Source of the DNA: Pelagomonas calceolata
Taxonomy: Eukaryota
NCBI GenBank assembly: GCA_918797485.1
Contig: CAKKNE010000001.1
Coordinates: 2,852,001 to 2,916,000 of the forward strand
Direction: 5' to 3'
DNA: 64,000 nucleotides
A program made the translations under genes and the position numbers. Below are positions 32,408 to 62,889 of this stretch, piece by piece (positions within the stretch are counted from its first letter, which is position 1; each line of letters begins with the position of its first letter). A model generated the notes under the pieces. It had not been told where the DNA came from. It searched no databases and worked only from the letters and a program-made list of their open reading frames with translations.

Positions 32408-33281
32408 GTGCCCCGTACCGTTAACGGTACGGGGCACACAGGCCCTAGTGAGTTTTGCGCCACTAGCATTTAAGCTGTTTTGCGCCGCTCGTCAGAACGC
32501 TGTTCTTCGCGCTCGTCCTTTTAGCCCTTGTAAAAACGTTTCTCTCGCTCCCCGCGTTCCGATGAGCACCTTTTCAAAACCATCCGAGCCCATGCTGCCG
32601 CGAAACTGCCACCGATCTCTGTGCAGAGCGCTCACACGCGCGCACGCCAGCCGCACTTCATTCCGTGGACCGCGCACGCACAGCGCATAGCATGAGGACG
32701 TGATCCGCACACGTGTGGGATGCATACAGCTGTAGCAGACGACGACAACGACCTATCGGTTTCCCTCCTGAGCTCCGGCTGGTACACCCTGCGCACCCAC
32801 TGCGACACGCTACACAAGTCGAAAAGAGCAGTCGTCGCCGTCTGCGCCCGATCTGCTGCCTCGTGGCGCCGCGCGCTGTCAAAGCTCGGCGCTGCGGCGG
32901 CGTCCGCGACGGAGCACGACGACGTCAAAACCGTCAAACCTGCGGTCGCTGCGGCATCGTGCGCCGTCGTCGCGCTGCCCCGCTGCAGCGGCGACGAAGG
33001 CGTGCGTAGCGGCGCTCGCGAGCGGTGCTCGCCTGATCCCCGAGAAGCCCGCGGCGTAGGAGGAGCTGCCGCGCCGCACCCGGCGGTGGTGCGTCCTCAA
33101 GAACTGGGCGCTTAAGCCGGGCGTACTTTGCGTCGGCGAGTTGTGGACGTTGGAAGCGGAACGTCCGCTTGGCGCTGCCGCCGCCGGCGCGCCGCGCCTT
33201 GTAAAATGCAAGTGCCCGTGGCCCGTCAGCGTTGTGAAAACTGTCCTCACCAATTCATCAGCAACGCAGCTCCGGACCGTG
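32408..33281 (+). repeat. Palindrome-headed repeat, copy C (internally deleted)
   Basis: Starts with a 30-bp palindrome; similar to the reverse complement of about 52540-53320, then jumps into the Zn-ribbon coding sequence (CKMQVPVARQRCENCPHQF). Confidence 0.85.
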
Positions 33282-39058: not shown

Positions 39059-41446
39059 TCACTCGCAGGCCACGCGTTTGGCCCTCTTGTTGTCGACGGT
39101 CGCTGACTCGGCCACGAACAGCTCCCGCTTCTGGGCGCGGCGCGCGGTGCGCCGCGCCAGCATCGTTGGTTCCGGCGGCGCGTCCTCCTCCCCCTCCTCC
39201 TCCCGCTCCGAGGACACGGCGTCGCGGTCGAGGTCGTAGCCGATCATGGCCGGGCACTTCACGACGCGCAGGAAGCCCTTCTTGTAGTTGTGCAGCACGT
39301 CGCTCTTGCTGCCGCCCAGCGCGATGACGTCCGCTCCGCACTTGGCCTTCTTGTAGGCCTCGTAGCGCGTGTAGCTCGCCGACTCCGGGCGATTCGGGTT
39401 CGCCTGGGCGAACGCGATCTCGAAGCACGCGTTGACGAGCAGCATCTCCGCGACGACTTTGGGCGCGGCGCCATCCAGCAGCCACCGCACGCTCTCGGCA
39501 TGTTCCTCCCCCTCGTTGCCCACGGCGGCTGCCGCGGGCGGAGTCTCCTCCTCGGGCGCGGACGCGGCTTGGGGAGGGGGCGCGGGCGCGTCGCCGACCG
39601 CCACGCGCACGTCGGCCGCAGCGACAGTGTTGAACACGTCGGGCTCGTCGACCCACTCGACGTCGTAGGTCCCGTCGTCGTTCACCCGGTCGATGACGGC
39701 GCGGGACCACTGCCAGCCCCACTTCGCCTCGACGCGCGCGCCGACCGCAAAGGCTGGCAGCGCCGCTGCATCCGCCGCGGTTGCCTCCTCGCGCGCGGGG
39801 GGCGTCTTTCTCTTGGGCGGCGTCGCGGGCGCGGCCGCCACCGCCACCGCCACCGCCGCAGCCTTCGCCTGCCGCCAACCCGGCGGCGGTTCTGCCGCCC
39901 GTTGTACGGGCTGCAGCATCGGCGGCGCCGCGCGCGGCGGCCCCAGAATTGTCGCGCGCATCAGGTCCAGTGCGGAGGGCCGCGGCAGGTTTGTGCTCTT
40001 GAACCGCTTTTTGGGGCCGCGCGGCGGTACCGGCCGCGGCGCCGGCGCCGGCCACCGCCGCGGGATCGTCGCCGCCCCGACCCGGGTCACCTTGAGCGCG
40101 TCCTTCTTCTTCTTTTTCGGCACCGTGCGTTGCCGCGGCGCGGGCGCGGGCGAGGGCGCCGGCGCGCGCCGCTGCGCGGACAGCGCGTCGTCGTCGTCGC
40201 CGATTGATGCCGCGAACGACGAGAAGTCGTCATCACTAATAACACGGCGCTTCTTTGGCAGCACGGCCTCGCTGAGCTCCGCTGCTTGGCGCGCCGCCTT
40301 GGCCTTGAGGCGTCTCCTGTGTTCTTCGATCCAGCCCTGGACCTCGTCGACGGCCGAGTACTCGCAATCATCAATAGTGCCCTTGTCGCCAAACTTCGCG
40401 TCATGGTAGAAACAGACCGGCTCATCGTGCTCGGCGTCGAAGCTGACCTTTAGGACGCGCCACCGCTCGCCGTCGTCGACAAATTCTACACCCTTGAGTT
40501 GGGTGTTCAGTCTCGCGATGAGTCTCTCGTCGTACTCAACGCCGTTTTCCGGGATTTCTGGGTGATCGGTTGCCTCGAAGGCTGCCGCGGCCATGAAGTC
40601 GTCGTTCTCTCTCTCAAATAGGTCGTCCGGCGCGACCGGTTGCTTGTCGTCGTCGTCGTTGCTCGCAGCGGGCGGCGCCGATGGCGCTGCGGGCGGCGCC
40701 GCCGCCGCGGGCGGCGCGGCGGCCTCGCTGAGGCTGGCGAACTTGGCCAGCTTCTTCTTCTTCTTCTTCTTCTTCTTCTTCTTCCTCTTGGGGTGCGCTG
40801 GCTCGGCCAGAACGGCAGCCGGCGGTAGTGCAGCTGGCGCAGGTACGTCGCCGACCACCGCGCGCACGTCGGCCGACGCGACAGTGTTGAACACGTCGGG
40901 CTCGTCGACCCACTCGACGTCGTAGGTCCCGTCGTCGTTCACCCGGTCGATGACGGCGCGGGACCACTGCCAGCCCCACTTCGCCTCGACGCGCGCGCCG
41001 ACCGCAAAGGCTGGCAGCGCCGCTGCATCCGCCGCGGTTGGCTCCTCGCGCGCGGGGGGCGTCTTTCTCTTGGGCGGCGTCGCGGGCGCGGCCGCCACCG
41101 CCGCCGCCGAAGCCGCAGCCTTTGCCTCCCTCTTGCGCGCCTTTTTCACCGCGGACTTTGACTTGATCTTCTTCTTGTGTTTGCCCGTCCTGGTCTTCTT
41201 CGGGGCGAGTTCCAGCACGCCGCCCAGTGACGACCTCGCGGAGTCCAAGACGGCCGCGGCCGCGCCCGCGACCGCGCCGCCCACCTTCTCGGCGAGCTCC
41301 TTAGTCGTTGACTGCATCTCCGCGAGGACGGCGTCCGGCGGCCCGTCGTCGGCCGTCATCACGCTCATCAGGCTCAGGCCTAAGAGACCGGCACCTACAG
41401 CCAGCGATGCTTTGCCGATCGTCAATCTCGTTCCTTTGACCGACAT
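39059..41446 (-). CDS. Protein with an N-terminal hydrophobic anchor, Lys-rich tracts, two Tudor/Agenet-like domains and a C-terminal NPxRP-RYE-YK domain
   Basis: FAVGARVEAKWGWQWSRAVIDRVNDDGTYDVEWVD occurs twice; likely start MSVKGTRL. Confidence 0.7.
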   Translation of the reverse strand: MSVKGTRLTIGKASLAVGAGLLGLSLMSVMTADDGPPDAVLAEMQSTTKELAEKVGGAVAGAAAAVLDSARSSLGGVLELAPKKTRTGKHKKKIKSKSAVKKARKREAKAAASAAAVAAAPATPPKRKTPPAREEPTAADAAALPAFAVGARVEAKWGWQWSRAVIDRVNDDGTYDVEWVDEPDVFNTVASADVRAVVGDVPAPAALPPAAVLAEPAHPKRKKKKKKKKKKKLAKFASLSEAAAPPAAAAPPAAPSAPPAASNDDDDKQPVAPDDLFERENDDFMAAAAFEATDHPEIPENGVEYDERLIARLNTQLKGVEFVDDGERWRVLKVSFDAEHDEPVCFYHDAKFGDKGTIDDCEYSAVDEVQGWIEEHRRRLKAKAARQAAELSEAVLPKKRRVISDDDFSSFAASIGDDDDALSAQRRAPAPSPAPAPRQRTVPKKKKKDALKVTRVGAATIPRRWPAPAPRPVPPRGPKKRFKSTNLPRPSALDLMRATILGPPRAAPPMLQPVQRAAEPPPGWRQAKAAAVAVAVAAAPATPPKRKTPPAREEATAADAAALPAFAVGARVEAKWGWQWSRAVIDRVNDDGTYDVEWVDEPDVFNTVAAADVRVAVGDAPAPPPQAASAPEEETPPAAAAVGNEGEEHAESVRWLLDGAAPKVVAEMLLVNACFEIAFAQANPNRPESASYTRYEAYKKAKCGADVIALGGSKSDVLHNYKKGFLRVVKCPAMIGYDLDRDAVSSEREEEGEEDAPPEPTMLARRTARRAQKRELFVAESATVDNKRAKRVACE

Positions 41447-41683
41447 GGGATGCCGCTCGAAGCCGTTTGATGTGGTGCTGAGAGCTGGGGCAGCCCGCGC
41501 GAAGTTCTGTCGCCTCTCTAAGCGCGCTCCCCAAAAGAGTAATTTGCGCGGCTCCATTTGAATGAATTAAAAAAAAAAAAATTCAAATTACTCTTTTGGG
41601 GAGCGCGCTTAGAGAGGCGACAGAACTTCGCGCGGGCTGCCCCAGCTCTCAGCACCACATCAAACGGCTTCGAGCGGCATCCC

Positions 41684-42577
41684 ATGTCGGTCAAAGGAAC
41701 GAGATTGACGATCGGCAAAGCATCGCTGGCTGTAGGTGCCGGTCTCTTAGGCCTGAGCCTGATGAGCGTGATGACGGCCGACGACGGGCCGCCGGACGCC
41801 GTCCTCGCGGAGATGCAGTCAACGACTAAGGAGCTCGCCGAGAAGGTGGGCGGCGCGGTCGCGGGAGCAGGCGCGGCCGTCTTGGACTCCGCGAGGTCGT
41901 CACTGGGCGGCGTGCTGGAACTCGCCCCGAAGAAGACTAGGATAGGCAAACACAAGAAGAAGATCAAGTCAAAGTCCGCGGTGAAAAAGGCGCGCAAGAG
42001 GGAGGCAAAGGCTGCGGCTTCGGCGGCGGCGGTGGCGGCCGCGGCCGCGACGCCGCCCAAGAGAAAGACGCCCCCCGCGCGCGAGGGGGAGGCCCCGCCC
42101 GCGGCGGCCGCCGTGGGCAACGAGGGGGAGGAACATGTCGAGAGCGTGCGGGGGCTGCTGGATGGCGCCGCGCCCAAAGTCGTCGCGGAGATGCTGCTCG
42201 TCAACGCGTGCTTCGAGATCGCGTTCGCCCAGGCGAACCCGAATCGCCCGGAGTCGGCGAGCTACACGCGCTACGAGGCCTACAAGAAGGCCAAGTGCGG
42301 AGCGGACGTCATCGCGCTGGGCGGCAGCAAGAGCGACGTGCTGCACAACTACAAGAAGGGCTTCCTGCGCGTCGTGAAGTGCCCGGCCATGATCGGCTAC
42401 GACCTCGACCGCGACGCCGTGTCCTCGGAGCGGGAGGAGGAGGGGGAGGAGGACGCGCCGCCGGAACCAACGATGCTGGCGCGGCGCACCGCGCGCCGCG
42501 CCCAGAAGCGGGAGCTGTTCGTGGCCGAGTCAGCGACCGTCGACAACAAGAGGGCCAAACGCGTGGCCTGCGAGTGA
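41684..42577 (+). CDS. Inverted, internally deleted paralog of 39059-41446 (Tudor domains lost, frame kept)
   Basis: Near-identical to the reverse complement of 41050-41546 and about 39025-39545. Confidence 0.7.
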   Translation: MSVKGTRLTIGKASLAVGAGLLGLSLMSVMTADDGPPDAVLAEMQSTTKELAEKVGGAVAGAGAAVLDSARSSLGGVLELAPKKTRIGKHKKKIKSKSAVKKARKREAKAAASAAAVAAAAATPPKRKTPPAREGEAPPAAAAVGNEGEEHVESVRGLLDGAAPKVVAEMLLVNACFEIAFAQANPNRPESASYTRYEAYKKAKCGADVIALGGSKSDVLHNYKKGFLRVVKCPAMIGYDLDRDAVSSEREEEGEEDAPPEPTMLARRTARRAQKRELFVAESATVDNKRAKRVACE

Positions 42578-42980
42578 GTGCCACTCCCACCGGGCGAATC
42601 CCCTTCTTCCCCACCGCCGACTGAAGTAATTCTAGAGTTACTTCAGTAAGACCCCCTACTACTAGGGTTACTTTGGATCATACTAGCGCGATATACTTAC
42701 CTCGCCTGGATCGAGCCATTAAGACCGTGGCGTTGTTGTTGGAAAGCGCGCCCGTCGACGTATATTAACCAGACTTAATTTCAGCAGAAGTCCAAAGTGA
42801 AACGTGAAATCATTTGATGATGTGGTTGTTTAAAATGCATTCGTGTGTGCGTGGTACCTCCACAATGACTCCCCTCAAGTGTTCCACGAATTCACTGCTA
42901 GTACTTCTGCTGGGTTCTTCCCGGAGCTTTTGGACGTCGAACATAGCGGCCAAGTAGCTCCAGCGGGAGGAAGTACTTAG

Positions 42981-44066
42981 TCACGATTCACCCACGACGG
43001 ATTGTAGTCTAGAATACGCTTCCGATCGAAGTTGTGCTATTATGGCGCGCTCGGACATGCGTATATGATCGTCGTCGAGCTCGCGTGTGCAGAAGTAGTC
43101 TGCGCGCGTATCGTCAGAGCACCAGGCGACGCGGACGCAGCCCCGGACCATGTCCACCGACGTCAGCTCTTGTTCGAAAGAGACTGCCTCGGCGAGCTCT
43201 CGCTCGTGATCGAAGGCTGGGTGGAGACCATCGAGGTCTGCCGTGGACAAAGGCGCGTCCTGGAGCTCAACGAGCATGGCCCGCGTATACATGTAGGTAA
43301 ACACCAACTTCAGATCGACGTCGGCGTTGGCGTTGGCATCATCTAAGGGTTCATCGTAGTACATTTCTTGGACCGCGACGACGTACTCGTCTAGGGTGAC
43401 CTCACCGTTTTCTTCACCGGCGACCACTCGAATTTTTGGCATTACGCAGCCGTCGGCGTCGTCGATGCCCATGCTGTCCAAAATGAAGGGCTCGAAACCG
43501 GGAACCGTCACGGTTGCCTTCCGACAGAAGATCCGTTTGAAGCCGCGCTCAACCGGAGGCAAAACAAAGCACGGGTGGACCGGCTCGGAGGTTTCGTCCT
43601 GGTCTTCCGTGGACCATGATAAAGCGTCCATTAAAGGCGCCTCGACGCCCATCGTCGTCCGCGTGCCGATACCGCCTATATGTAGAGATTGAGGTGGCCT
43701 CGTGGGCTCGGTCGTGGCGTCCGGCGCCTCGTCCTCCACCTGCGCCTCGACTGCCTTCTTTATCGTCGTCGTCGTCGTCGTCTTCTTCTTTTTCTTTTTC
43801 TTCTTCTTCTCAAGCACATGCTTCGCCATGGTCGTGGTTGACTCGGCTTTGGTTTTCGACTTGTATTTGCTCTTCTTGGCCTTTTTCGACTTGGGAGTGA
43901 GGCCCAGCATGCTCCCCAGCGATAGCCGTGCATTTTTGCCGGCATTTTCCCATGCATCGTCGCCGCTCATGCAGAGAATTGCGCCCAGGCACAACCCTGT
44001 TCCAGCCAAAGCCAATACGGCTTGGGCCTTAGACGGTCTGTTTTCTTTCATCGGGCGACTGGACAT
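42981..44066 (-). CDS. Protein with an N-terminal hydrophobic anchor, a Lys-rich tract and a C-terminal BAH-like domain
   Basis: YVVAVQEMYYD...LVFTYMYT...ERELAE...VDMVRGCVRV...DYFCTRELD follows the BAH motif order. Confidence 0.55.
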   Translation of the reverse strand: MSSRPMKENRPSKAQAVLALAGTGLCLGAILCMSGDDAWENAGKNARLSLGSMLGLTPKSKKAKKSKYKSKTKAESTTTMAKHVLEKKKKKKKKKTTTTTTIKKAVEAQVEDEAPDATTEPTRPPQSLHIGGIGTRTTMGVEAPLMDALSWSTEDQDETSEPVHPCFVLPPVERGFKRIFCRKATVTVPGFEPFILDSMGIDDADGCVMPKIRVVAGEENGEVTLDEYVVAVQEMYYDEPLDDANANADVDLKLVFTYMYTRAMLVELQDAPLSTADLDGLHPAFDHERELAEAVSFEQELTSVDMVRGCVRVAWCSDDTRADYFCTRELDDDHIRMSERAIIAQLRSEAYSRLQSVVGES

Positions 44067-44835
44067 GTCACTGCAGCCTGCGTGCGGAGAGAGCTGGACG
44101 AGCTGGGCTGCTTGGCGACAGCAACTCGGAAGCGCGAAGTTGGCTCGGACCTGTTGGGCTCCGCCGTCCCCGGACTCGTTTGAAACGCCGTGCGGGTTAT
44201 CTAGACCTACTAGGGTCGCTTATTACCCTTAGCTTAAAGTAGCTTTTACCGACACTAGCCCCTAGTAGGTTGTGCTTTGGAGGGCCGGTAGACCACCTTG
44301 CACCCACCCACACGGGCCACCCGGCTGGTGCTGGACGCGTCCAGACCCCTCAAGGCTCCCACCCAGCGGAGGGCCGTCCTGTGCCGGCTGTCGAGACGAA
44401 TGGAATTAAAAACATTAGCGCTCCAAAAAAGGCACTTGTAGCCCCCGCGATGACCGCGATCCGGTCACCCGCCGGCCAAGCCTGCTGGCGGACGTCTTGC
44501 GGGTCTTTTGAAGCCTCGGAATCGTAGGGTTGGTGGAGTAACATTCTCAATCTAAATTTGGCCGATTTGGGGCAAGACCCCCCCTAGCAGGTTCGGGCTT
44601 CAGGACGGCGCACTTCCGCACAAGGACGGATCCTTCCTGGGAGGGCTTCCCTACCGTTCGCCCCCGAGGTTTGCTAAAGTATTAAGTTCAAATCTGTGGA
44701 GCGCGGACTGCCCCAGCCCATAGAGGAGCGGCGCACTCGCAGCCGAGACCTCGCAAAGCGGCCACTCAGCCGAAACCCTCGCAGAAGCGGCTGCCCCAAC
44801 GTATAGCAGCGGCACACTCAGCCGAAACCCCCAAT

Positions 44836-45900
44836 ATGTCGAGCATCAGCAAGAACAAGTCGCTCAAGGCCGCGCTGGCCCTCGGCGGCGGCCTCGTGAC
44901 CGTCGGATTGATGGCTGCCATGATGAACGACGACGACGGACCGCCCGAGGACGTCGTCGACGGCGTGCAGTCGACGATGACCGGCCTCGTGGACAAGGCG
45001 GGCGGCGCGGTCGCGGCCATGGCCGCGTCCGTTGGCGACGCCGTCAAGGCGTCGCTCGGCGGCGTGCTGAAGAGCTCGGCGCCGCCAGCCGCGAAGAAGG
45101 CCAAGAAGAAGAAGACGGCGAAGACGAAGGCGGCGTCCAAGGCAAAGAAGGCGCGCAAAGCGGCGAAGGCTGCCAAAGCGGTGGCGGCGCCCGTGACGCC
45201 GCCGAAGGCGCCGCGCGCGGCGCCCACGCAGGAGGAGCCGGTCGTGGCGGCCGCGCCGCCGGCACCCGAGGCCGCGCCGCCCGCGGAGGCGCCCACGACG
45301 GCTCCGCCGGCCTTCGCGGTCGGCGCGCGCGTCGAGGCGCGGTGGGCCGGGACGTGGTACGGCGCCGTCGTCGATTCAACGCACGGGGACGGGAGCTACG
45401 AGCTCGAGTGGCTCGACGACCCCAACGTCTTCAACACCGTGGCGGCGGCCGACGTGCGCGCGGCGGCGGCCGACGAGCCCGCGCCGCCGCCGCCGCCGGA
45501 GGCCGAAGAGGAGGCGGCGGCCGCGCCCGAGGAGGAGGCGCCCGAGGCTGCGGCCGCGGCCGCGGCCGAGCAGCCCGCGGACGACGAGAGCTGCGAGGAG
45601 GCGGCCGACGTGCAGGGCCTGCTCGACGGCGCCGCGCAGCGCGTCATCGTCGACATGCTCCTCGCGAATGCGAGCCTTAAGATCGCGTTCGACCAGGAGA
45701 ACCCGAAGCGCCCGGACTCGGCGAGCTTCAAGCGCTACGAGGCCTACAAGGCGGCCACGTGCGGCGCCGACGTGCTGGCGTGGGGCGGTTCCAAGAGCGA
45801 CGTGCTCCACGACTACCGGAAGGGCTTCCTCCGCGTGACGCGCTGCCCGGTCATGGTCGCCTACGACCTCGACCGCGACGCAGACGTAGGGTTGAGTTAG
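44836..45900 (+). CDS. Anchor + Tudor + NPKRP-RYE-YK domain protein; diverged paralog of 39059-41446
   Basis: FAVGARVEARWAGTWYGAVVDSTHGDGSYELEWLD; IAFDQENPKRPDSASFKRYEAYK. Confidence 0.75.
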   Translation: MSSISKNKSLKAALALGGGLVTVGLMAAMMNDDDGPPEDVVDGVQSTMTGLVDKAGGAVAAMAASVGDAVKASLGGVLKSSAPPAAKKAKKKKTAKTKAASKAKKARKAAKAAKAVAAPVTPPKAPRAAPTQEEPVVAAAPPAPEAAPPAEAPTTAPPAFAVGARVEARWAGTWYGAVVDSTHGDGSYELEWLDDPNVFNTVAAADVRAAAADEPAPPPPPEAEEEAAAAPEEEAPEAAAAAAAEQPADDESCEEAADVQGLLDGAAQRVIVDMLLANASLKIAFDQENPKRPDSASFKRYEAYKAATCGADVLAWGGSKSDVLHDYRKGFLRVTRCPVMVAYDLDRDADVGLS

Positions 45901-52147: not shown

Positions 52148-53320
52148 TATGTTTCACAGATGTCCGCGCTACTCCGTGCGCTCCGTGCACTTGCGCCCTT
52201 TGCTGCTTGAAAATTTTCTAGACATTTTGGCGGCTCGCCGGCACCTCGCTGTTACATACAGCAAATGTCGATCTCGACACCGTGCACGAATTGATCCCAT
52301 GACACGTTGTCATTCTCCCTCGACGCCTATCCATCGAAGAGCTCCAAGACCGCGCCGCCGCCCACGCCCGACTGCTCGTGAGCCAATGAGCACTCGACGC
52401 GTCTTTCGTCCGCCGCATGCACGGGCGTGTTGATTAGGCGTGTGTCACCGAACCAGAGCAACGCAGCGCCCTTGATAGGTGCACGTGCCAAAAACTTGCA
52501 AGCCGCGTCGGCTCGGCATCGGTCGCCAGGCGCGGCGCGCAGGCGGCGGCAGCGCCAAGCGCACATCCCGCTTCCAACGTCCACAAGCTCGCCGACGCGA
52601 AGTACGCCCGGCTTAAGCGCCCAGTTCTTGAGGACGCACCACCGCCGGGTGCGGCGCGGCAGCTCCTCCTACGCCGCGGGCTTCTCGGGGATCAGGTGCA
52701 CGTCGCTCGCGAGCGCCGCTACGCACGCCTTCGTCGCCGCTGCAGCGGGGCAGCGCGACGACGGCGCACGATGCCGCAGCGACCGCAGGTTTGACGGTTT
52801 TGACGTCGTCGTGCTCCGTCGCGGACGCCGCCGCAGCGCCGAGCTTTGACAGCGCGCGGCGCCACGAGGCAGCAGATCGGGCGCAAACGGCCACGACTGC
52901 TCTTCTCGACTTGCGTAGCGTGTCGCAGTGGGTGCGCAGGGTGTACCAGCCGGAGCTCAGGAGGGAAACCGATAGGTCGTTGTCGTCGCCTGCTACTGCT
53001 GTATGCATCCCACACTTGTGCGAATCGCGTCCTCATGCTGCGCGCTGCGCGTGCGAGGTGCACGGGATGAAGTGCGGCTGGCGTGCGCGCGTGTCAGCGC
53101 TCTGCACAGAGATCGGCGGCAGTTTCGCGGCAGCATCGGCTCGGATGGTTTTGGAAAGGTGCTCATCGGAACGCGGGGAGCGAGAGAAACGTTTTTAGAC
53201 GGGCGGAAAGGGCGAGCGGCGAAGAACAGCGTTCTGACGAGCGGCGCAAAACAGCTTAAATGCTAGTGGCGCAAAACTCACTAGGGCCTGTGTGCCCCGT
53301 ACCGTTAACGGTACGGGGCA
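51797..53320 (-). repeat. Palindrome-headed repeat, copy B (most complete; leads into the 435-aa ORF)
   Basis: 28-bp palindrome at 53293-53320; shared with copies A, C, D and E. Confidence 0.9.
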
Positions 53321-53581
53321 GCCGGTGGTCACGTCCCAGGAGACGGTGCCTCGGACATCTCGACGTCGCCGCCCGACACGGCGCCGGTGACATTTGAAGT
53401 CTTTCGCTTCTTGGTCCGCTTGAGCCGATCGTTGTCCCGTCTGAGTTGTTCTAGCTCCTCGCGGAGCTCCTCGATCTTGGCCTCTCTGATCCTCTTGAGC
53501 CGATCGTTGTCCCGTCTGAGTATTTCCAGCTCTTCGCGGAGCCGAAGCTGGCGCCTAAGACTCGCGACGTGGTCGCGCACC

Positions 53582-53794
53582 TGCCCCGTACCGTTAACGG
53601 TACGGGGCACACAGGCCCTAGTGAGTTTTGCGCCACTAGCATTTAAGCTGTTTTTCGCCGCTCGTCAGAACGCTGTTTTTCGCCGCTCGCCCTTTCCGTC
53701 CCCGTAAAAACGTTTCTCTCGCTCCCCGCGTTCCGATGAGCACCTTTTCAAAACCATCCGAGCCCACCTTGCCGCGAAACTGCCGCCGACACTA
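53582..53794 (+). repeat. Palindrome-headed repeat, copy E (end module only)
   Basis: Palindrome at 53582-53609, then sequence matching the reverse complement of about 47243-47400. Confidence 0.9.
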
Positions 53795-55355: not shown

Positions 55356-56372
55356 ATGAAGCTCGCCGTCGCACTGGCGGTCCTCCCCGCGGCCGCGGCG
55401 TTCGTCGGCCCGGCGGCCGCGCCCGCCGAGACGCGGCTGCGGGAGACCAAGGCGGACCTCGAGGCGCTGGCCAAGGAGCTCAACCCGACGGTCGGCTTCT
55501 ACGACCCGCTGGGGCTCAGCTCCCAGAACTTCTGGGGCAAGAGCGAGGAGGAGACCATCGGCTTCCTGCGCCACGCCGAGATCAAGCACGGCCGCGTTGC
55601 GATGGCGGCCTTCTCGGGCTACGTCGTCCAGGCGAACGGCTTCCACTGGCCCTGGGCCATGACCATGGACGGCCGGTCCTTCGACGTCGCCGGCTCGCCG
55701 CCGGAGCAGTGGGACGCGATCCCGCTGAACGCGAAGCTGCAGATCGTCGCGTTCGTCGGCTTCCTCGAGCGCGCCGCGGCGCCCGCCCCGCGCCGCGCCG
55801 CCCCGCCCCGCCCCGCCCGCCGGCCGCCCGCGACGCGCCGGCCGCGCCCGCGCAGGTTCTACAGCGAGATCGCGGGCACGCACTACATGAAGGGCGGCGT
55901 GCCGGGCAAGTACCCCAGCTTCGCCGAGACCGGCTTCGACGCCGTCATGCCCTGTGTGGAAATCAACCAGTGTGTCGGGCGCTCATTTCTCGGCGATGAC
56001 GCGGCCGTGCTGTGCTGGCTCCGTCGAGCGGCGAGGAATCGGCACCGCCACGCCATCGAGCAGGCATCGCGTCGATGGCGTGGAGGTCGACGCGACGATG
56101 CAGCACGAACGCGCCGTAAAATTTTGATTTCCACACAGGTCATGCCCGTCGACCTCTACGACCCCGCCGGCCTCTGGGGCGACATGTCGGCCGAGAAGTC
56201 GAAGCGCGGCCTCGCGGTGGAGATCAACAACGGCCGCGCAGCGATGCTCGGCATCTTCGGCTTCATGGCCGCCTCGAAGGTCGACGGCTCCGTGCCCGCG
56301 CTGTCCTTCATCAAGCCCTACGCGGGCGACTACATGCAGCCCTTCGAGGGGAACTTCGACCTGTTCGCGTAG
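55356..56372 (+). CDS. Fucoxanthin-chlorophyll light-harvesting (LHC/FCP) protein; introns 55769-55855 (GC-AG) and 55944-56138 (introner)
   Basis: Signal peptide with AAAF motif, FYDPLGL, AEIKHGRVAMAA, VEINNGRAAMLG. Confidence 0.95.
   Translation: MKLAVALAVLPAAAAFVGPAAAPAETRLRETKADLEALAKELNPTVGFYDPLGLSSQNFWGKSEEETIGFLRHAEIKHGRVAMAAFSGYVVQANGFHWPWAMTMDGRSFDVAGSPPEQWDAIPLNAKLQIVAFVGFLERAAAPAPRRAAPPRPARRPPATRRPRPRRFYSEIAGTHYMKGGVPGKYPSFAETGFDAVMPCVEINQCVGRSFLGDDAAVLCWLRRAARNRHRHAIEQASRRWRGGRRDDAARTRRKILISTQVMPVDLYDPAGLWGDMSAEKSKRGLAVEINNGRAAMLGIFGFMAASKVDGSVPALSFIKPYAGDYMQPFEGNFDLFA
55952..56138 (+). mobile_element. Introner (non-autonomous TIR element) in the LHC gene, TSD GTCATGCC
   Basis: TIRs CTGTGTGGAAATCAA / TTGATTTCCACACAG; perfect TSD at 55944-55951 and 56139-56146. 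Confidence 0.95.
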
Positions 56373-56459
56373 GCGGAACCCCCTCAACTTGAACCCTGAG
56401 AAGACGAGTTGGAATAAAGGAGATTAAGAGGGAGAAGGAAGTATCCTAAGATACAGGCC

Positions 56460-57765
56460 CTATCGGCCCCGCCGGCGCTCGCGGCGCGAGCGCGAGCGCG
56501 AGCGCGAGCGCGAGCGGCGGCGGGCGCGCCCACGGTCGCGGCGGCGGCGGCGGCGCTTGCGGCCGCGGGACGCGTCGGAGGAGTCCGAGGACTCGTCCGA
56601 CGACGACGACGTCTCGTCGCGGCGCTTGGCGACGCCCCAGCCGCCGATGCTCGGCGCCGCCGCGAGGCGCTCGCGGTGCTGCGCCTCCCGCGCGGCGCGC
56701 TGCTGCGCCGGGTTCAGGAACGCGAGCGCCGGGTCCGGCCCCGCGGGGGGCGCCGGCGCGCCCCCGCCGGCGCCCGCGCGCGCGAGCGCGGCCAGGACGG
56801 CGGGCGACGTGACGCCGGCGAGGCCGGCCCCGGGCGCGGGGCCGCCCGCCTCGCCGGCGCGCAGCGCCGACGCCTGCGTCGCGCGGAACGCGAGCAGCGC
56901 CGCGGCGGGGTCGCGCGCGCCCGCGGGCGGCAGCGGCGTCGGCTGGTTCGACTGCGCGAAGAGCCGCGGCTGCATGGCCTTCTCGACGCGCAGCGCGGCG
57001 CCGCAGACCATCGTCCCGTTCATCGCCACCGCCGCCTCGGCCGCGGCCGCGTCGAGGAAGTCGACGAAGCCGTAGCGGCCGTCGCCGGCCACGCGCACGT
57101 CGCGCACGCCCCCGATGCACTCGAAGATCTGGCGCAGCACGGCCGGCGACGCGCCGGGGCTCAGGTTGCCCACGTGGATCGTCCGCGAGGGCGCGAGCAG
57201 CGGGTTCGCGTTCTGGGGCACGCCCGTGGACGTCACGGCTGTGCTGCCCATGAGCTGCGCGGCCTCGGAGAAGCCCGCGAACGCGGCGGCGGGCGCGGGC
57301 GCGGTCCCCGGGCCCGCGCCCGGGAGCTCGCCGCCTGCGCGAATCGACCGGTGAGCCGGGCGCGCGCGACAATTCTCGACGACGTCCCTTCTCGGCGAGA
57401 ACGCGGCTGCGTCGGCCGGAACGAGCGGCCGTAGGCCACAACGCCACGCCATCGAGCTGGCGGCGCGTCGATGGCGCGGAGGCCACGATGCAGCACTGGC
57501 GAAGACGCGTCGCGACGCTTTGATTTGTGCACTGCTCGCCGCGGCAGCGCGAGATGACGCCCACGAGGAACGCCGACGGGTTCCGCACGGAGGCCAGGTT
57601 GCTGGCGAGAAATCTGTCGACGACCACGGCCGCGAGCGGCTCGGGCAGCGCGGCGAGGTCCTGGAGGACCTTGGGGTCGAGCGCGTTCGCCTCGATCAGG
57701 CCGGCGTCGACGGCGCCCTGCAGCCGGGCAGCGAGGGCCGGGGGGAGGCTGCTGTTGCCAAACAT
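56460..57765 (-). CDS. RNA-binding protein with an hnRNP Q/R acidic-domain-like N-terminus, an RRM and an RS tail; intron 57335-57542
   Basis: VRNPSAFLVGVI; RTIHVGNL (RNP2); RYGFVDF (RNP1); RSRSRSRS. Confidence 0.8.
57335..57534 (+). mobile_element. Decayed introner in the RRM gene, TSD CTCGCCGC
   Basis: TSD at 57327-57334 and 57535-57542; decayed TIRs; internal CGCCACGCCATCGAGC...CGCGTCGATGGCG shared with the other copies. Confidence 0.85.
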
Positions 57766-59225
57766 CCAATACGCGTATACGGCGGTCTTACTAGGCAGGC
57801 GGCGAAGAGCCAAAGCTTGTCGAGAGCGGTTTTTACTTCTTCCGCGTCCGGCTTCCCGCGATCGCTTCGAGGTAGGCGCGGTTTTTACTTAGCCAAACAA
57901 CCAGAGCTCGACGGCGGCGATTCCTGGTCTGCCTCGCGCCCTCCTGGCTCAAGGACAACCACGACCGGACGCAGCAGTCGCTGGAGTCGCTGGCGGCGCG
58001 CGGCGTGACGCCCTAGGTCCCTTCCCCTGTCGAGTTGTGCCTCCCTTAGAGACGATGTGGCGCACTACTGTGGTGCCGCTTGGTGCGTCTGGGACTCACG
58101 TGCGGCAAAAATAGCGGACAGGGCAGCAGAGCATCTCTATTTTAGCCTGCGGTGCCTGCGAAATCCGACGACGATTCGTGCTCTCCAGCTCTAAATCGCA
58201 GACAGCCATCTGCACACGAGCAGACGCGCGATGGCCCAGCCGAACCGGCCGACGCGCATAGAAGATGTGGACCTCGGCGCTGATGAGTTCAGCTGGATAA
58301 ATAACTCCAAAAGAAATAAGAAAGGCGTCATGAACAAAATCAAGGAGTGCTACGTCGCGGGCGTCGACATCAGGAGGCCGCCCGCCGGGCGGCCTCTATG
58401 TCCGACTGGCGGCCTGGGCATCGGGCCAGTTTGTTAGCGAGGCGCTCGGGGCTGATGTTTAGGGAGTGCCGTGCGTCGGAACAGTACAACAACGACCCGA
58501 GAACTATCGCCCTGCGTGCCAATGAAGGGTACATGCAGGCGACCTGCGGGTCGCCGCTCCAGCGAGCATACCCACGCCACTTGGTGCCAAGCTAAGTCTT
58601 AACAAACCTCAAGTAGTCGCAGGTGGACGACGACGCGATGCGATAGATGCCCGGCGCCGGCTTGTGTGTGCGTGTGTGCGCGTGCGCGTGCGCGAAGATG
58701 TCTTCGCCGCCGGCGCGGGGCACCTCCCGGAATCGAAGGCCGTGCGCATCGCGATCTCGGACGCGTGCGCAACCGTGTGGCCAGCGCCGTGGTCGGGGTG
58801 CTAGCAGTACCCCCCGCCCGCGTAACGTAACAACCCTGTGCCTCCGGCCCACCAGGAACTTGGCAAGAAGACTCGGACGAACCGGGGATATATGCGAGTG
58901 CAACCCCCAGGCAGGCACTGGCAGGCAAGCCTAGCCGGCTTTCGGGAAGCCGCGCCCCGGGGCGAAGCCTAGCCCACTGAAGCCTAACCCACTAGCCGCC
59001 CCTGCAGCACGTCGAATCGCGCGCAGAAGGACTGGGCCCAGCAGCGCACCGGAACTCTACAAAGCGCGCTCTCAACGGCCACACTCGCGACGGCAAACAA
59101 GCTCAGCGGATTGGGGCGCCCCGAATTCCGTGCGGAGTTTGGACTGCTCGAAACCCGTGCGGAGTTTGGACGAACGCGCGGACTACCCATGGGGGTGCAC
59201 TGGGCATTCCTTTAGTGAAGTGGAC

Positions 59226-59840
59226 CTAGGCGTCGGGCGGCGCGTAGTCCGCGGACAGGATCGACTCGACGAGGGCGTCGAGGGCACCACCGCCGTCGGG
59301 CGCGGCGCCCGGGCCGTCGGCGGCTGACGGCTCGTCGTCGTCGTCGAAGATGGCGCTGAACGTGCCCGCGTCGACGTCCTCCTCGTCGAGCCCGTCGGAG
59401 GCGGCCGCGGGCTCGCCCGCGCCGCGGCGCAGGCGCAGCGTCACGGACCCTTCCCGCGCGCGGATCAGGCCCTCGACGCGGTCGAGCCCCGCGCCCTCGC
59501 ACCGCCAGACGCCGGCGCCGAAGACGGCCGAGACGCCTATGATTTCGTCGCCGGGCGCGACGCCGGCGGCCGCCGCGCAGCCGCCCGCGCGGCAGCCCTG
59601 CACGAGCACGCGGCCGTTCGCCCCCTCCTGCACCGTCACGCCCAGCGGCCGCGTGAGCTCGACCTCCAGTTCGTCGTCCGCGAGGCCGGCGGCGACGTCT
59701 TCCTTCGCCCCGCCGCCGAATAGGCCGTGGAGCGGGGCGGGGCGCGCCGAGCCTCGTCGCCAGCGCGAGGCGGCTGTTTCGGTGGCGGGTATCACGTAGG
59801 CCGCAGTGGCGAGCACGCTGCAAGCGTGAGTAATCCTCAT
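59226..59840 (-). CDS. PDZ-domain protein with a signal/transit-like N-terminus
   Basis: VELTRPLGVTVQE...GVAPGDEIIGV...VTLRLRR. Confidence 0.7.
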   Translation of the reverse strand: MRITHACSVLATAAYVIPATETAASRWRRGSARPAPLHGLFGGGAKEDVAAGLADDELEVELTRPLGVTVQEGANGRVLVQGCRAGGCAAAAGVAPGDEIIGVSAVFGAGVWRCEGAGLDRVEGLIRAREGSVTLRLRRGAGEPAAASDGLDEEDVDAGTFSAIFDDDDEPSAADGPGAAPDGGGALDALVESILSADYAPPDA

Positions 59841-60205
59841 AGTCCCGCGCCGCGTAAAGACCTAAAGACCGGCAGTCTCACGCAAACAGCTTGTGTCGCG
59901 GTCTCTAAAGACCCTACGGCGTAAAGACACGGTGCCTAAGCTTCCTCTACGGCACAGTTGTTTAGGCGCAACCGCGTAAAGACCTGACACCTCTCTACGG
60001 CGTGCAGGAGTCGGAATCAAACAAGTAAAGTGGCTAGTAGGATGCAGGAACCGCAAACACACAAAGCGGGTCTTCCGGCTGAAAAGAGACTCCAACGAGA
60101 AGCTAGAGTACGTAAGCCACTAGGAATAGCAGGCGGTGAATACAGGCCGCGTGACGGCACGCCACAAAAAAGACAACCACTCGCGAACGTATACTCACCG
60201 AGACG

Positions 60206-60640
60206 ATGGCCCTCGCGGGCCAGCCCGCGGACGACGCCGCCACGCTCGCCTTCGGGCCCGAGTTCCCGCTGGACAGCTGCGAGTGCCTCTCGGACGCGGA
60301 GGTCACGACGATCCTCGACACGCACCTGCGCAGCTCGGCCGCGGCCGACCGGCCGTTCCCGCGCAAGGCCCTGGAGTACGCGCGGCGCAACGTGGGCGCG
60401 CGGCCGCTCGAGGCGGTGAAGACCGAGGCCGTGCACGTGCGGCAAGCGCTGCAGGACCTGGACTTCGAGGGCACGGACGCCGGCGCGCTCCACGTCTTCG
60501 AGGTCGCCGCGATCACCAATCTGATGGGCCGGGACTCGGAGCCCGAGGAGGCCCGGGCCCTGGTGCCCAGCCTCCGCCGCTACGACGACGACCAGCTCGG
60601 GCGCATCCTCGCGGCCGCCGCTGGCGCGCGACAAAACTAA
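60206..60640 (+). CDS. RPB4: RNA polymerase II subunit RPB4
   Basis: DDAATLAFGPEF...CLSDAEV...FEVAAITNL...EEARALVPSL. Confidence 0.85.
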   Translation: MALAGQPADDAATLAFGPEFPLDSCECLSDAEVTTILDTHLRSSAAADRPFPRKALEYARRNVGARPLEAVKTEAVHVRQALQDLDFEGTDAGALHVFEVAAITNLMGRDSEPEEARALVPSLRRYDDDQLGRILAAAAGARQN

Positions 60641-60846
60641 TAATAAATAATAAATTAATTATGGCGGCGGCCGGGTAGCTAGGCGGCCTAGCTCTAAGCA
60701 AAGCAATTATTAAGGAAGCCCCCGCGGCGGGGACCTCGCGGCTAGGCAGCCTAGCTCTAAGCAAAGCAAGACCTAAAAAAGGAACAAGCTCCTAGTAAGA
60801 GCCTTCTCCCTGCTCGGTCAGGATGCCCAACCGGAGCTAGTAAATA

Positions 60847-61182
60847 AAAAAGGTATGAACCACTTCAGGGTCACCTGCCCTGAGGGCAGCTAACCCTGGA
60901 GGAGTTCATGCCTTTTTCCCTGCCGGGGGCTGCTCCGCAAGGGTGCCAAATCCGGCGTGGGGGGTGATGGTTCGGGTTTAAGACTTTTTGATTCTTATAA
61001 ACCACTGATTTCGGGTTTTGGGGATGGTTTATAAGAATCAAAAAGTCTTAAACCCGAACCATCACCCCCCACGCCGGATTTGGCACCCTTGCGGAGCAGC
61101 CCCCGGCAGGGAAAAAGGCATGAACTCCTCCAGGGTTAGCTGCCCTCAGGGCAGGTGACCCTGAAGTGGTTCATACCTTTTT
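60847..61182. mobile_element. Foldback/MITE-like element: 158-bp inverted arms with a 20-bp spacer
   Basis: 60847-61004 reads as the reverse complement of 61025-61182; flanks are AGTAAATA / AATAAATA. Confidence 0.9.
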
Positions 61183-61252
61183 AATAAATAATTCAAGTTG
61201 GAAGGAATATCCTAAAGGAAAAGGACATACACCAAGCCTCTTCTAACGCGCA

Positions 61253-62889
61253 TCACTCCCCCAGCCGCGCGACGACGCACGTGATGTCGTCCCGGTACAG
61301 GCCCTCGGCGTCGCGCCACCGTTGGGCGGCTAGGTCCACGAGCGCGCGGCAGGCGTCCGCGCACGCCTCGGGCCCGCCCTGGTCGAGCTGGGCCCCGACG
61401 AGCGCGGCCGCCTCGTCGCTCCCCACGAACTCCCAGACGCCGTCGCTCGCGGCCTGTGTGGAAATCAAAATTTTACGGCGCGTTCGTGCTGAACCGTCGC
61501 GTCGTCCTCCACGCCATCGACGCGACGCCTGCTCGATGGCGTGGCGGTGCCGGTTCGTCACCGCTCGACGGAGCCGGCACGGCCGCGTCATCGCCGAGAA
61601 ATGACTTAGTGAAGAATTGTCGGGTGCACCCGACGCACTGGTTGATTTCCACACAGCTCGCGGCCACGAGCGCCGCGTCGCGCGCCACGTCGACGGCGTG
61701 TCTTCGCACCTCGGCGTCGCTCACGACGCCCACGCGCTTGGCCGCGCCGTCGCCGAGGCTCCGCGACATGGCCAGCCCGACGCGCGTCCGCTTCGCGTCG
61801 AGCCAGACGCGCGCGCTCAGGCCCGGCGCGGGCGGGTCGCTCACGAAGCCGCCGGCCGCCTCGACGCGGCGCCGCTCGTCGGGCAGGTCCGGGTTGTGGT
61901 CGCGGCTGAGCGGCGCCGCCTCGAAGCCCGCGCCGGCGCGCCGCACGACGACGGCCCGCGAGTCGCCCGCGTTGCCGCAGACGAGCGTGCCGCCGAGGCG
62001 CACGACGACGACGGCCGTCGTGCCCGAGTAGGTCGACTCGACGGCCGAGGCCGCGAGCGCCGCGTCGGCCTCGCGGAAGGCCGCCGCGAGCGCGGCCTCG
62101 CAGGCCGCCGCGCCGGCGTCCGCGGCCACGGCCCGCTCGAGGGCCGCGACGACCGCGCGCGTGCAGAACTCGGCCACCTGCTCGCCGTGCTCGCCGTGGC
62201 CGTCGAAGACGCCGTACAGGGCCCGCCGCGGCGACCCGCCGAAGGGCTGCACGACGACGCCCCGGTCCTGATTAATCTTGGCCACGCTGCCCACGGCAGC
62301 GCCGACCGCGCGCGGCTCGATGCCGTGGTACGTGAGCGCGCCGACGGCGGCGGCGGGCCACGGCTGCGCGGGCGCCGCCGGCCGCAGCGGGTCGTAGGCC
62401 GGGCTGCGGAACTCGACGCTCGCCGCCGCCTCCGCCCCGGCGCCGGCGCCGGCGCCGGCGCCGGCGTCGGCGCCCGCCCCGGCCGGCGCCGTCGCGTAAC
62501 TTAGGCGCCGGCGCCGGAATGTCTCGGGGTCGGCCACGACGCCGCGCGCGGCGGCCTCGAACGCCTCCACCAGCGCGGGGCGCTCGCCCTCGGCCGCCTC
62601 CGCCCACGCCCGATCGCCGCCGCGGCTCTCGTAGAGGTCGTCGAGCCGCGCCTCGACGAGGGCGCGCCGCTCGCCGGAGAGGGCCTCGAGCCCGAGCCGC
62701 GTCCGCAGCGCCGTCACCTGTGTGGAAATCAAATTTCAGACGCCCCACCCATCGACGCGACGTTGTCCCCTTAGCTGCGTCTGCTCTATCCCCGTATATC
62801 TGCGGCAGCACGAACCTAACTCACTGGTTGATTTCCACACAGGCCGCTACCACGGTCTCGTCGGCGCGGGCGCTCGCCGCCGCGCCCAT
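61253..62889 (-). CDS. PP2C protein phosphatase with a putative myristoylated N-terminus (MGAAAS); introns 62718-62850 and 61454-61664
   Basis: INQDR, GVFDGHG, SGTTA, NAGDSRAV, LAMSRSLGD, AASDGVWE (across the intron), DDIT. Confidence 0.92.
61454..61656 (-). mobile_element. Introner in PP2C, TSD CTCGCGGC
   Basis: Perfect 15-bp TIRs; TSD at 61446-61453 and 61657-61664; internal sequence highly similar to the LHC copy. Confidence 0.95.
62718..62842 (-). mobile_element. Short introner subfamily in PP2C, imperfect TSD GCCGTCAC / GCCGCTAC
   Basis: Same 15-bp TIRs around a largely different interior; 125 bp in total. Confidence 0.9.

What the first reader, a model, noticed from the sequence alone, without database searches (positions are those of the whole stretch)
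55944..62850. Four transposon-derived introns that splice out seamlessly using the TSD as the donor site
Seen: each element ends in ...CAG (acceptor from the TIR) in the gene's orientation. Each 8-bp TSD begins with GT or GC on the coding strand (GTCATGCC, GCGGCGAG, GCCGCGAG, GTAGCGGC). Removing the element plus one TSD copy restores the protein: FDA|VMPVDLYDP, ISRC-R-GELP, ALV|AASDGVWE, DETV|VTALR. Known: this is the introner mechanism described in Aureococcus anophagefferens, and 8-bp TSDs suggest hAT-like mobilisation. Four occur within 7 kb, and I saw none in the low-GC genes.
Basis: partly seen in the sequence, partly recalled or inferred. Interest (0 to 1): 0.7.

Follow-up and report, generated by a model that had tools for sequence, protein, structure and literature searches.

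The report
Transposon-made introns in a marine alga
Four small mobile DNA pieces sit inside three algal genes and are missing from the RNA of those genes, leaving the protein code intact; this is likely the already described 'introner' route to new introns, and one of the four is likely so recent that many wild cells lack it.

Summary
Confirmed, with two corrections, and already known. Four elements of one family (125-203 nt) interrupt genes for a light-harvesting protein, an RRM protein and a PP2C phosphatase. RNA data skip exactly 195, 208, 211 and 133 nt, restoring frames colinear with orthologs. Corrections: E4's duplication is only 6 of 8; E2 has decayed ends and is inserted backwards. 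Gene order matches the published Pelagomonas calceolata chromosome 1 table, not Aureococcus; 956 such elements with GT/GC donors and terminal repeats are published for that species. In ocean metagenomes 116 of 121 family copies have GT/GC at the duplication start in one orientation (background 33%), and that strand is the coding strand in 40 of 41 testable copies. E3 is likely polymorphic: 13 of 15 listed near-identical PP2C proteins show E4 unspliced but an empty E3 site, so its RNA skip is not yet proof of splicing. hAT mobilisation is unproven; no transposase seen. The scan had not noted this family before.

The parts
55356..56372 (+). Light-harvesting (chlorophyll a/b-binding family) gene; exons 55356-55768, 55856-55943, 56139-56372; 244 aa
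   Evidence: PF00504 split across the exons; 223 of 244 identical to ortholog P0128 with no gap near the E1 site
55769..55855 (+). Ordinary 87-nt GC-AG intron, not of the family
   Evidence: Sequence; P0130 and P0128 read straight through; join not among the rows listed
55944..56138 (+). E1 intron, 195 nt, phase 0: TSD copy 55944-55951 (GT donor) plus element 55952-56138 (AG acceptor); second TSD copy 56139-56146 stays in the exon
   Evidence: skip of 195 in 4034 and 3528 raw reads and an X1 contig
56460..57765 (-). hnRNP-Q-acidic-domain plus RRM gene, two exons, 365 aa
   Evidence: PF18360 and PF00076; colinear with P0402 across the E2 site
57335..57542 (-). E2 intron, 208 nt, phase 1: TSD copy 57535-57542 (GC donor) plus element 57335-57534, a diverged family member in reverse orientation with decayed TIRs; second TSD copy 57327-57334
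   Evidence: skip of 208 in X1 and X7 contigs; X7 also holds the unspliced element (depth 12.3 against 187 for the joined contig)
61253..62889 (-). PP2C phosphatase gene, three exons, 430 aa
   Evidence: PF00481; 307 identities with ortholog P0002
61454..61664 (-). E3 intron, 211 nt, phase 0: TSD copy 61657-61664 (GC donor) plus full-length 203-nt element 61454-61656; second TSD copy 61446-61453; likely a recent, polymorphic insertion
   Evidence: 99% identical to the copy in L071 at another locus; skip in X1, X7, X4 contigs; empty site in near-identical proteins
62718..62850 (-). E4 intron, 133 nt, phase 0: TSD copy 62843-62850 (GT donor) plus internally shortened element 62718-62842; exon-side TSD copy 62710-62717 differs at 2 of 8
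   Evidence: skip of 133 fitting GT..AG in X1, X7, X4 contigs

Best explanation
These are four copies of one small repeated element, each flanked by an 8-base target duplication and each absent from RNA of its host gene; they are likely non-autonomous cut-and-paste DNA transposons (introners) that the spliceosome likely removes as ordinary introns. A transposase encoded elsewhere (inferred, not seen) makes an 8-nt staggered cut. The terminal repeat begins CTG, so both ends read CAG outward and whichever end lies downstream supplies the AG acceptor. When the duplicated target begins GT or GC on the sense strand, the upstream copy is the donor. Splicing removes that copy plus the element and restores the mRNA letter for letter. 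Insertions without such a donor are likely purged by selection (inferred). The four copies differ in age: E3 full-length and likely polymorphic, E1 and E4 shared with wild relatives and shortened, E2 the most diverged. The host is likely Pelagomonas calceolata or a very close relative.
For: Shown: TIR/TSD anatomy; one family; RNA skips of the four predicted lengths. E4's mismatched TSD fixes the cut to within 3 nt and shows the downstream copy is kept. Orthologs are colinear at all four sites. In metagenomes, exact duplications peak at 8 nt (35 of 72 copies; 0 at 6, 7 or 9-12). GT/GC starts exactly 8 nt before the element in 67 of 121, against 13-26 at offsets 5-7 and 9-11. 75 of 75 resolved copies (TSD up to 2 mismatches) have GY in one orientation: 32 forward only, 30 reverse only, 13 both; background 0.326. 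The far end keeps its AG in 32 of 32 copies where it is the acceptor and 25 of 30 where it is not (Fisher p=0.022; 55, 66). The GY strand equals the inferred coding strand in 40 of 41. Host: eleven-gene stretch aside, the annotated order LisH-WD40, SAM synthetase, Rab18, ion channel, LHC, RRM/hnRNP-Q, PDZ, RPB4, PP2C matches Pca_1p15440-15720.
Against: E3's skip comes only from contigs of runs not shown to carry E3, so it may reflect the empty allele. No raw-read join was listed for E2-E4. No transposase or long autonomous copy was seen among 16 unresolved loci inspected, and the genome was not available. 5 of 121 flanks lack GY in either orientation. 47 of 122 matches were dropped from the 75-copy count, 17 of them with 500 nt or more downstream. 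Coding strand was inferred by a codon-composition score, not by annotation. Where the TSD is perfect (E1-E3) the cut can slide 9-10 nt; GY..AG is the only canonical placement but is not read directly.
Confidence: 0.93

Rival explanations
1. The RNA joins reflect strains that lack the insertions, and the elements are unspliced MITEs in this strain.
For: For E3 the empty allele looks common, and no run was shown to hold both E3 and its join (12, 52).
Against: E1 is read into by many near-identical LHC proteins from contigs (37) yet is skipped in thousands of reads. X7 holds both E2 and its join. E4 is retained in contigs (37; X20 pieces in 52) and skipped in three runs. E2-E4 are not multiples of three, so retention would break the genes.
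Confidence: 0.04
2. The family spreads through RNA (reverse splicing) and the direct repeats only reflect a preferred site.
For: Near-absolute tie to the sense strand (40 of 41); the E3 RNA folds well (z=-4.1); an RNA route was proposed for other introners (passage).
Against: Both orientations are equally common (32 against 30); the 8-bp repeats differ at every locus; the donor is not part of the element (55, 73). Reverse splicing predicts one orientation and a carried donor. The fold follows from the TIR and inner palindromes.
Confidence: 0.02
3. E1 is a coding insert that adds 65 residues to the light-harvesting protein.
For: E1 is 195 nt, in frame and stop-free in this window.
Against: Other alleles of E1 end in a stop within 12-20 codons (P0124, P0255, P0256), and the skip is seen in 4034 and 3528 reads (12).
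Confidence: 0.01

Closest known systems
Putative introner elements of Pelagomonas calceolata (Guerin et al. 2022, PMC9481584; preprint 10.1101/2021.10.25.465678)
   Same: Likely the same species and family: intron length peak near 210 nt, GT and GC donors, AG acceptor, conserved TIR, 956 copies.
   Different: The passages I saw do not state the 8-bp TSD, donor co-option, two orientations or polymorphism. Figure S3 is a picture and Supplementary Data 3 lay beyond the stored text, so sequence identity with their families and listing of these four loci were not checked.
Aureococcus anophagefferens introner elements (Huff et al. 2016; not held, seen only through citing passages)
   Same: One splice site carried, the other recruited from the TSD, introns made in either orientation; family 4 of Gozashti 2022 has TSD, TIR and 200 nt mean length.
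   Different: Different host by gene order and protein identity (A. anophagefferens PP2C 47%, LHC 74%, which may be paralogs). Annotated donors there are 96% GT; here 50 GT and 12 GC among 62 unambiguous copies (55) and 2 of 4 GC in the window. Sequence homology untested.
Polarella glacialis ILE classes 6, 8 and 10 (10.1101/2020.10.14.339549)
   Same: 8-nt TSD beginning with G used as donor, both orientations.
   Different: Dinoflagellate host; GA donors allowed there; no sequence comparison made.
hAT-superfamily MITEs (features recalled)
   Same: 8-bp TSD and short TIR.
   Different: No transposase seen; hAT ends usually begin CAG or TAG (recalled) where this family begins CTG; only weak enrichment of two-sided GY..RC targets (13 of 75, about 7 expected, p=0.02).

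Membership tests
Introner, Aureococcus type | Repeated, sequence-similar introns at unrelated loci | tested here: met
Introner, Aureococcus type | Terminal inverted repeats | tested here: met
   15 of 15 in E1, E3, E4; decayed in E2
Introner, Aureococcus type | Locus-specific target-site duplication of fixed length | tested here: met
   8 of 8 in E1-E3, 6 of 8 in E4; exact 8-nt repeat in 35 of 72 metagenome copies
Introner, Aureococcus type | Acceptor carried, donor recruited from the TSD | tested here: met
   E4 join; 116 of 121 flanks with GY (73); AG kept 32 of 32 (55)
Introner, Aureococcus type | Intron formed in either orientation | tested here: met
   E2 reversed; 32 forward, 30 reverse (55)
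Introner, Aureococcus type | Removed from RNA without change to the coding sequence | tested here: met
   Met for E1, E2, E4; for E3 the join is seen but the strains were not shown to carry it
Introner, Aureococcus type | Absent from orthologs | tested here: met
   P0128/P0277-79 and P0002/P0271-74 are whole single-ORF calls, some on contigs of 5-20 kb; P0402 colinear at the E2 site (70). Protein level only; their DNA was not seen
Introner, Aureococcus type | Insertion in nucleosome linkers | not testable with these tools
   No chromatin or methylation data
Introner, Aureococcus type | Sequence homology to the published A. anophagefferens or P. calceolata families | not testable with these tools
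   Huff 2016 not held; TIR letters not found in the readable supplements (50)
hAT superfamily | 8-bp TSD | tested here: met
   P and Merlin elements also make 8-bp TSDs (recalled)
hAT superfamily | hAT transposase bounded by the same TIRs | not testable with these tools
   No genome held; none in 31 long window ORFs (41); longest copy seen 294 nt (33)
hAT superfamily | Palindromic target preference as in Hermes/hobo (recalled; not universal in hATs) | tested here: inconclusive
   13 of 75 two-sided against about 7 expected; A at position 7 in 12 of 62 one-sided copies

The most novel reading that the evidence does not exclude
The family is still jumping in wild populations of a cosmopolitan alga (E3 present in some cells, absent in many) and its insertion is aimed at sense-strand GT/GC sites in transcribed exons rather than only filtered by selection: just 5 of 121 copies lack such a site, where random insertion with free survival in about 11% intergenic DNA would leave roughly 30% without one. 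That would be a DNA transposon reading the host's transcription direction. The polymorphism alone is likely (about 0.85); aimed insertion is the unlikely part.
Probability: 0.1. Interest if true: 0.7.

Novelty: already known. Interest (0 to 1): 0.27.

Why it matters
Intron gain by transposons is established in pelagophyte algae, so the mechanism is not new. The locus is a clean teaching case: four ages of one family in 7 kb, both orientations, GT and GC donors. The likely polymorphism of E3 would make it possible to catch intron birth in ocean metagenomes and to measure, from allele frequencies, how strongly selection filters new insertions. I did not find such an analysis for this host in searches; intron polymorphism is published for Micromonas (abstract).

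Tried and rejected
Genome-wide copy count and transposase search: no genome held. Viral carriers: 0 matches to the 21-mer; 53 matches to the 15-mer, 0 of 53 with an inverted partner within 1 kb, read as chance. Autonomous copy among 16 unresolved metagenome loci: none; they were short, truncated or had decayed TSDs. Host name from cluster look-ups: none given; RPB4 search gave no named close relative. Runs X19 and X20 (kind unknown) covered the PP2C gene only in fragments; one X19 piece crosses E3's edge by 23 nt, below the tool's 31-nt bar, so it is not counted. Four-in-7-kb clustering: p=6e-5 per window at 956 copies (0.3 such windows expected per genome), 4e-3 at an assumed 3000 (20 expected), so not pursued. 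Huff 2016 could not be read. Earlier scan notes: none by sequence or place, one unrelated element by words.
Full report
Observation. The region holds four elements at the stated coordinates. E1 (body 55952-56138), E3 (61454-61656) and E4 (62718-62842) have a perfect 15-nt terminal inverted repeat beginning CTG; the 15-mer occurs 6 times in the window and 0 times in 100 shuffles. E1, E2 and E3 have perfect 8-bp direct repeats; E4 has 6 of 8. E2 (57335-57534) lacks a clean TIR pair but aligns to E3 at 76% in the opposite orientation relative to its gene, far above shuffled scores. All four are one family: E1/E3 95%, E3/E4 78% over aligned columns.

Genes. Pfam places the interrupted genes as a light-harvesting protein (+), an hnRNP-Q-acidic/RRM protein (-) and a PP2C phosphatase (-) with two insertions. 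Removing each element with its upstream repeat gives open frames of 244, 365 and 430 residues. Orthologs are colinear at the sites: P0128 has no gap within 12 columns of E1; P0002 none at E4 and one gap near E3, several residues upstream of the junction and shared with empty-site alleles; P0402 reads straight across E2.

RNA. I laid 8 of 24 listed runs. E1 is skipped (195 nt, GT..AG) in 4034 and 3528 raw reads of X21 and X24, which are one sample, and in an X1 contig. E2 (208) is skipped in X1 and X7 contigs, and X7 also holds the unspliced element at lower depth (12.3 against 187). E3 (211) and E4 (133) are skipped in X1, X7 and X4 contigs. X7 and X4 are RNA by the tool's guess only. No raw-read join was listed for E2-E4, where depth was a few reads, and X19 and X20 listed none of these joins. 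In E1-E3 the perfect repeat lets the cut slide 9-10 nt, and only the stated placement gives GY..AG. In E4 the mismatched repeat narrows the cut to 3 nt and shows that the upstream copy leaves with the intron, which is the most direct support for the donor lying in the duplication.

Family. Exact flanking repeats peak at 8 nt (35 of 72 copies with both ends). Of 122 matches, 75 resolved to a full element with at most 2 TSD mismatches; all 75 have GT or GC at the start of the repeat in one orientation (32 forward, 30 reverse, 13 both) against a background of 0.326. Counting all 121 flanks without that filter gives 116, with 5 misses and one duplicated locus. The GY strand is the inferred coding strand in 40 of the 41 one-sided copies that passed my score and length cut-offs, and the far end keeps AG in 32 of 32 copies where it serves as acceptor against 25 of 30 where it does not. 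The contigs may come from several species.

Age and polymorphism. E3 is full-length and 99% identical to a copy at another locus (L071). Among 15 listed of 125 near-identical PP2C proteins, 3 begin inside E4's tail, 10 begin at the GTG just after E4, 2 do not cover that end and 0 are fully spliced, yet all 15 read through the E3 site. Their contigs reach 10-15 kb, so they are likely DNA with E4 and without E3; partly spliced RNA is the alternative, and I did not see the DNA. E1 and E2 are read into by other near-identical proteins with internal differences, so they are shared and older. E1's stop-free frame is not kept in those alleles. E4's two repeat copies can each be derived from one target by a single G-to-A change (inference; ortholog P0002 has V-A-G there).

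Host. The order LisH-WD40, SAM synthetase, Rab18, ion channel, then LHC, RRM/hnRNP-Q, PDZ, RPB4, PP2C in the window matches rows Pca_1p15440-15720 of the published Pelagomonas calceolata table. The first 30 kb are 50.8% GC, like the 52% centromeric troughs described there, whose introns are shorter. The named A. anophagefferens homologs are only 47% and 74% identical. Shared order is not sequence identity, so the species is likely, not proven.

Mechanism. Shown: anatomy, RNA skips, both orientations, tie of GY to gene strand. Inferred: mobilisation by a transposase in trans, removal by the spliceosome, and selection as the reason for the GY bias. Because GY follows the gene and not the element, and two-sided targets are only slightly enriched (13 of 75, about 7 expected), a simple sequence preference of the transposase does not explain it. 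The scarcity of copies without GY (4%) needs few surviving non-coding insertions; biases toward genes and GC-rich sites are reported for introners (passages) and assembly bias may add. Aimed insertion is the bold alternative, at about 0.1.

Known systems. P. calceolata has 956 published putative introners with GT/GC donors, AG acceptors and TIRs (PMC9481584: passages, section 6, supplement 2 part 1, rows of supplement 4; preprint: passages). Its Figure S3 and Data 3 could not be read and may already list these loci and the TSD. The carried-acceptor, TSD-donor, two-orientation pattern is attributed to A. anophagefferens in a citing preprint (passages); Huff 2016 itself was not seen. Gozashti 2022 (passages and supplement rows) lists an A. 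anophagefferens family with TSD, TIR and 200 nt. Other papers were seen as passages or abstract (69). hAT membership is not established.

Verdict. A real and well supported case of an already known mechanism, in a host where it is already reported. Interest 0.27.

Noticed in passing
window 60844-61185: A 342-nt palindrome with 161-nt arms at 99% between RPB4 and PP2C, MITE-like. X1, X4 and X20 contigs leave the window sequence at 61200 while X7 runs on to 61137, so it is likely polymorphic too.
   Followed up: partly
window 53113-53789: Large inverted repeat, 209-nt arms at 95%, around a 259-nt spacer with a 75-nt duplication; foldback-like, not of the introner family.
   Followed up: no
window 1-30000: GC 50.8% against 62-69% further on, with conserved genes and no family copy; likely the edge of a low-GC centromeric region.
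   Followed up: partly
window 55769-55855: Very GC-rich 87-nt GC-AG intron in the LHC gene, absent from ortholog calls P0128 and P0277-79.
   Followed up: partly
window 55613 joined to 61656: 350 reads in X21 and 107 in X24 join the LHC gene to an element end on opposite strands; possibly an LHC paralog elsewhere with its own family copy.
   Followed up: no
window 61454-61656: Read depth over E3 is about 1400 on each strand while its exons have under 5, pointing to many copies elsewhere present in poly(A) libraries.
   Followed up: no
window 62046-62137: One X4 contig skips 92 nt with non-canonical ends inside the PP2C exon; probably an artefact in GC-rich repeats.
   Followed up: no
window 32000-53000: Block of duplicated ORFs without Pfam match (39059-45900 share long segments; three near-copies at 32720, 46752, 52613).
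   Followed up: no
L019, downstream of the element: A second, decayed family end lies about 145 nt beyond the first copy, suggesting tandem or nested insertion.
   Followed up: no
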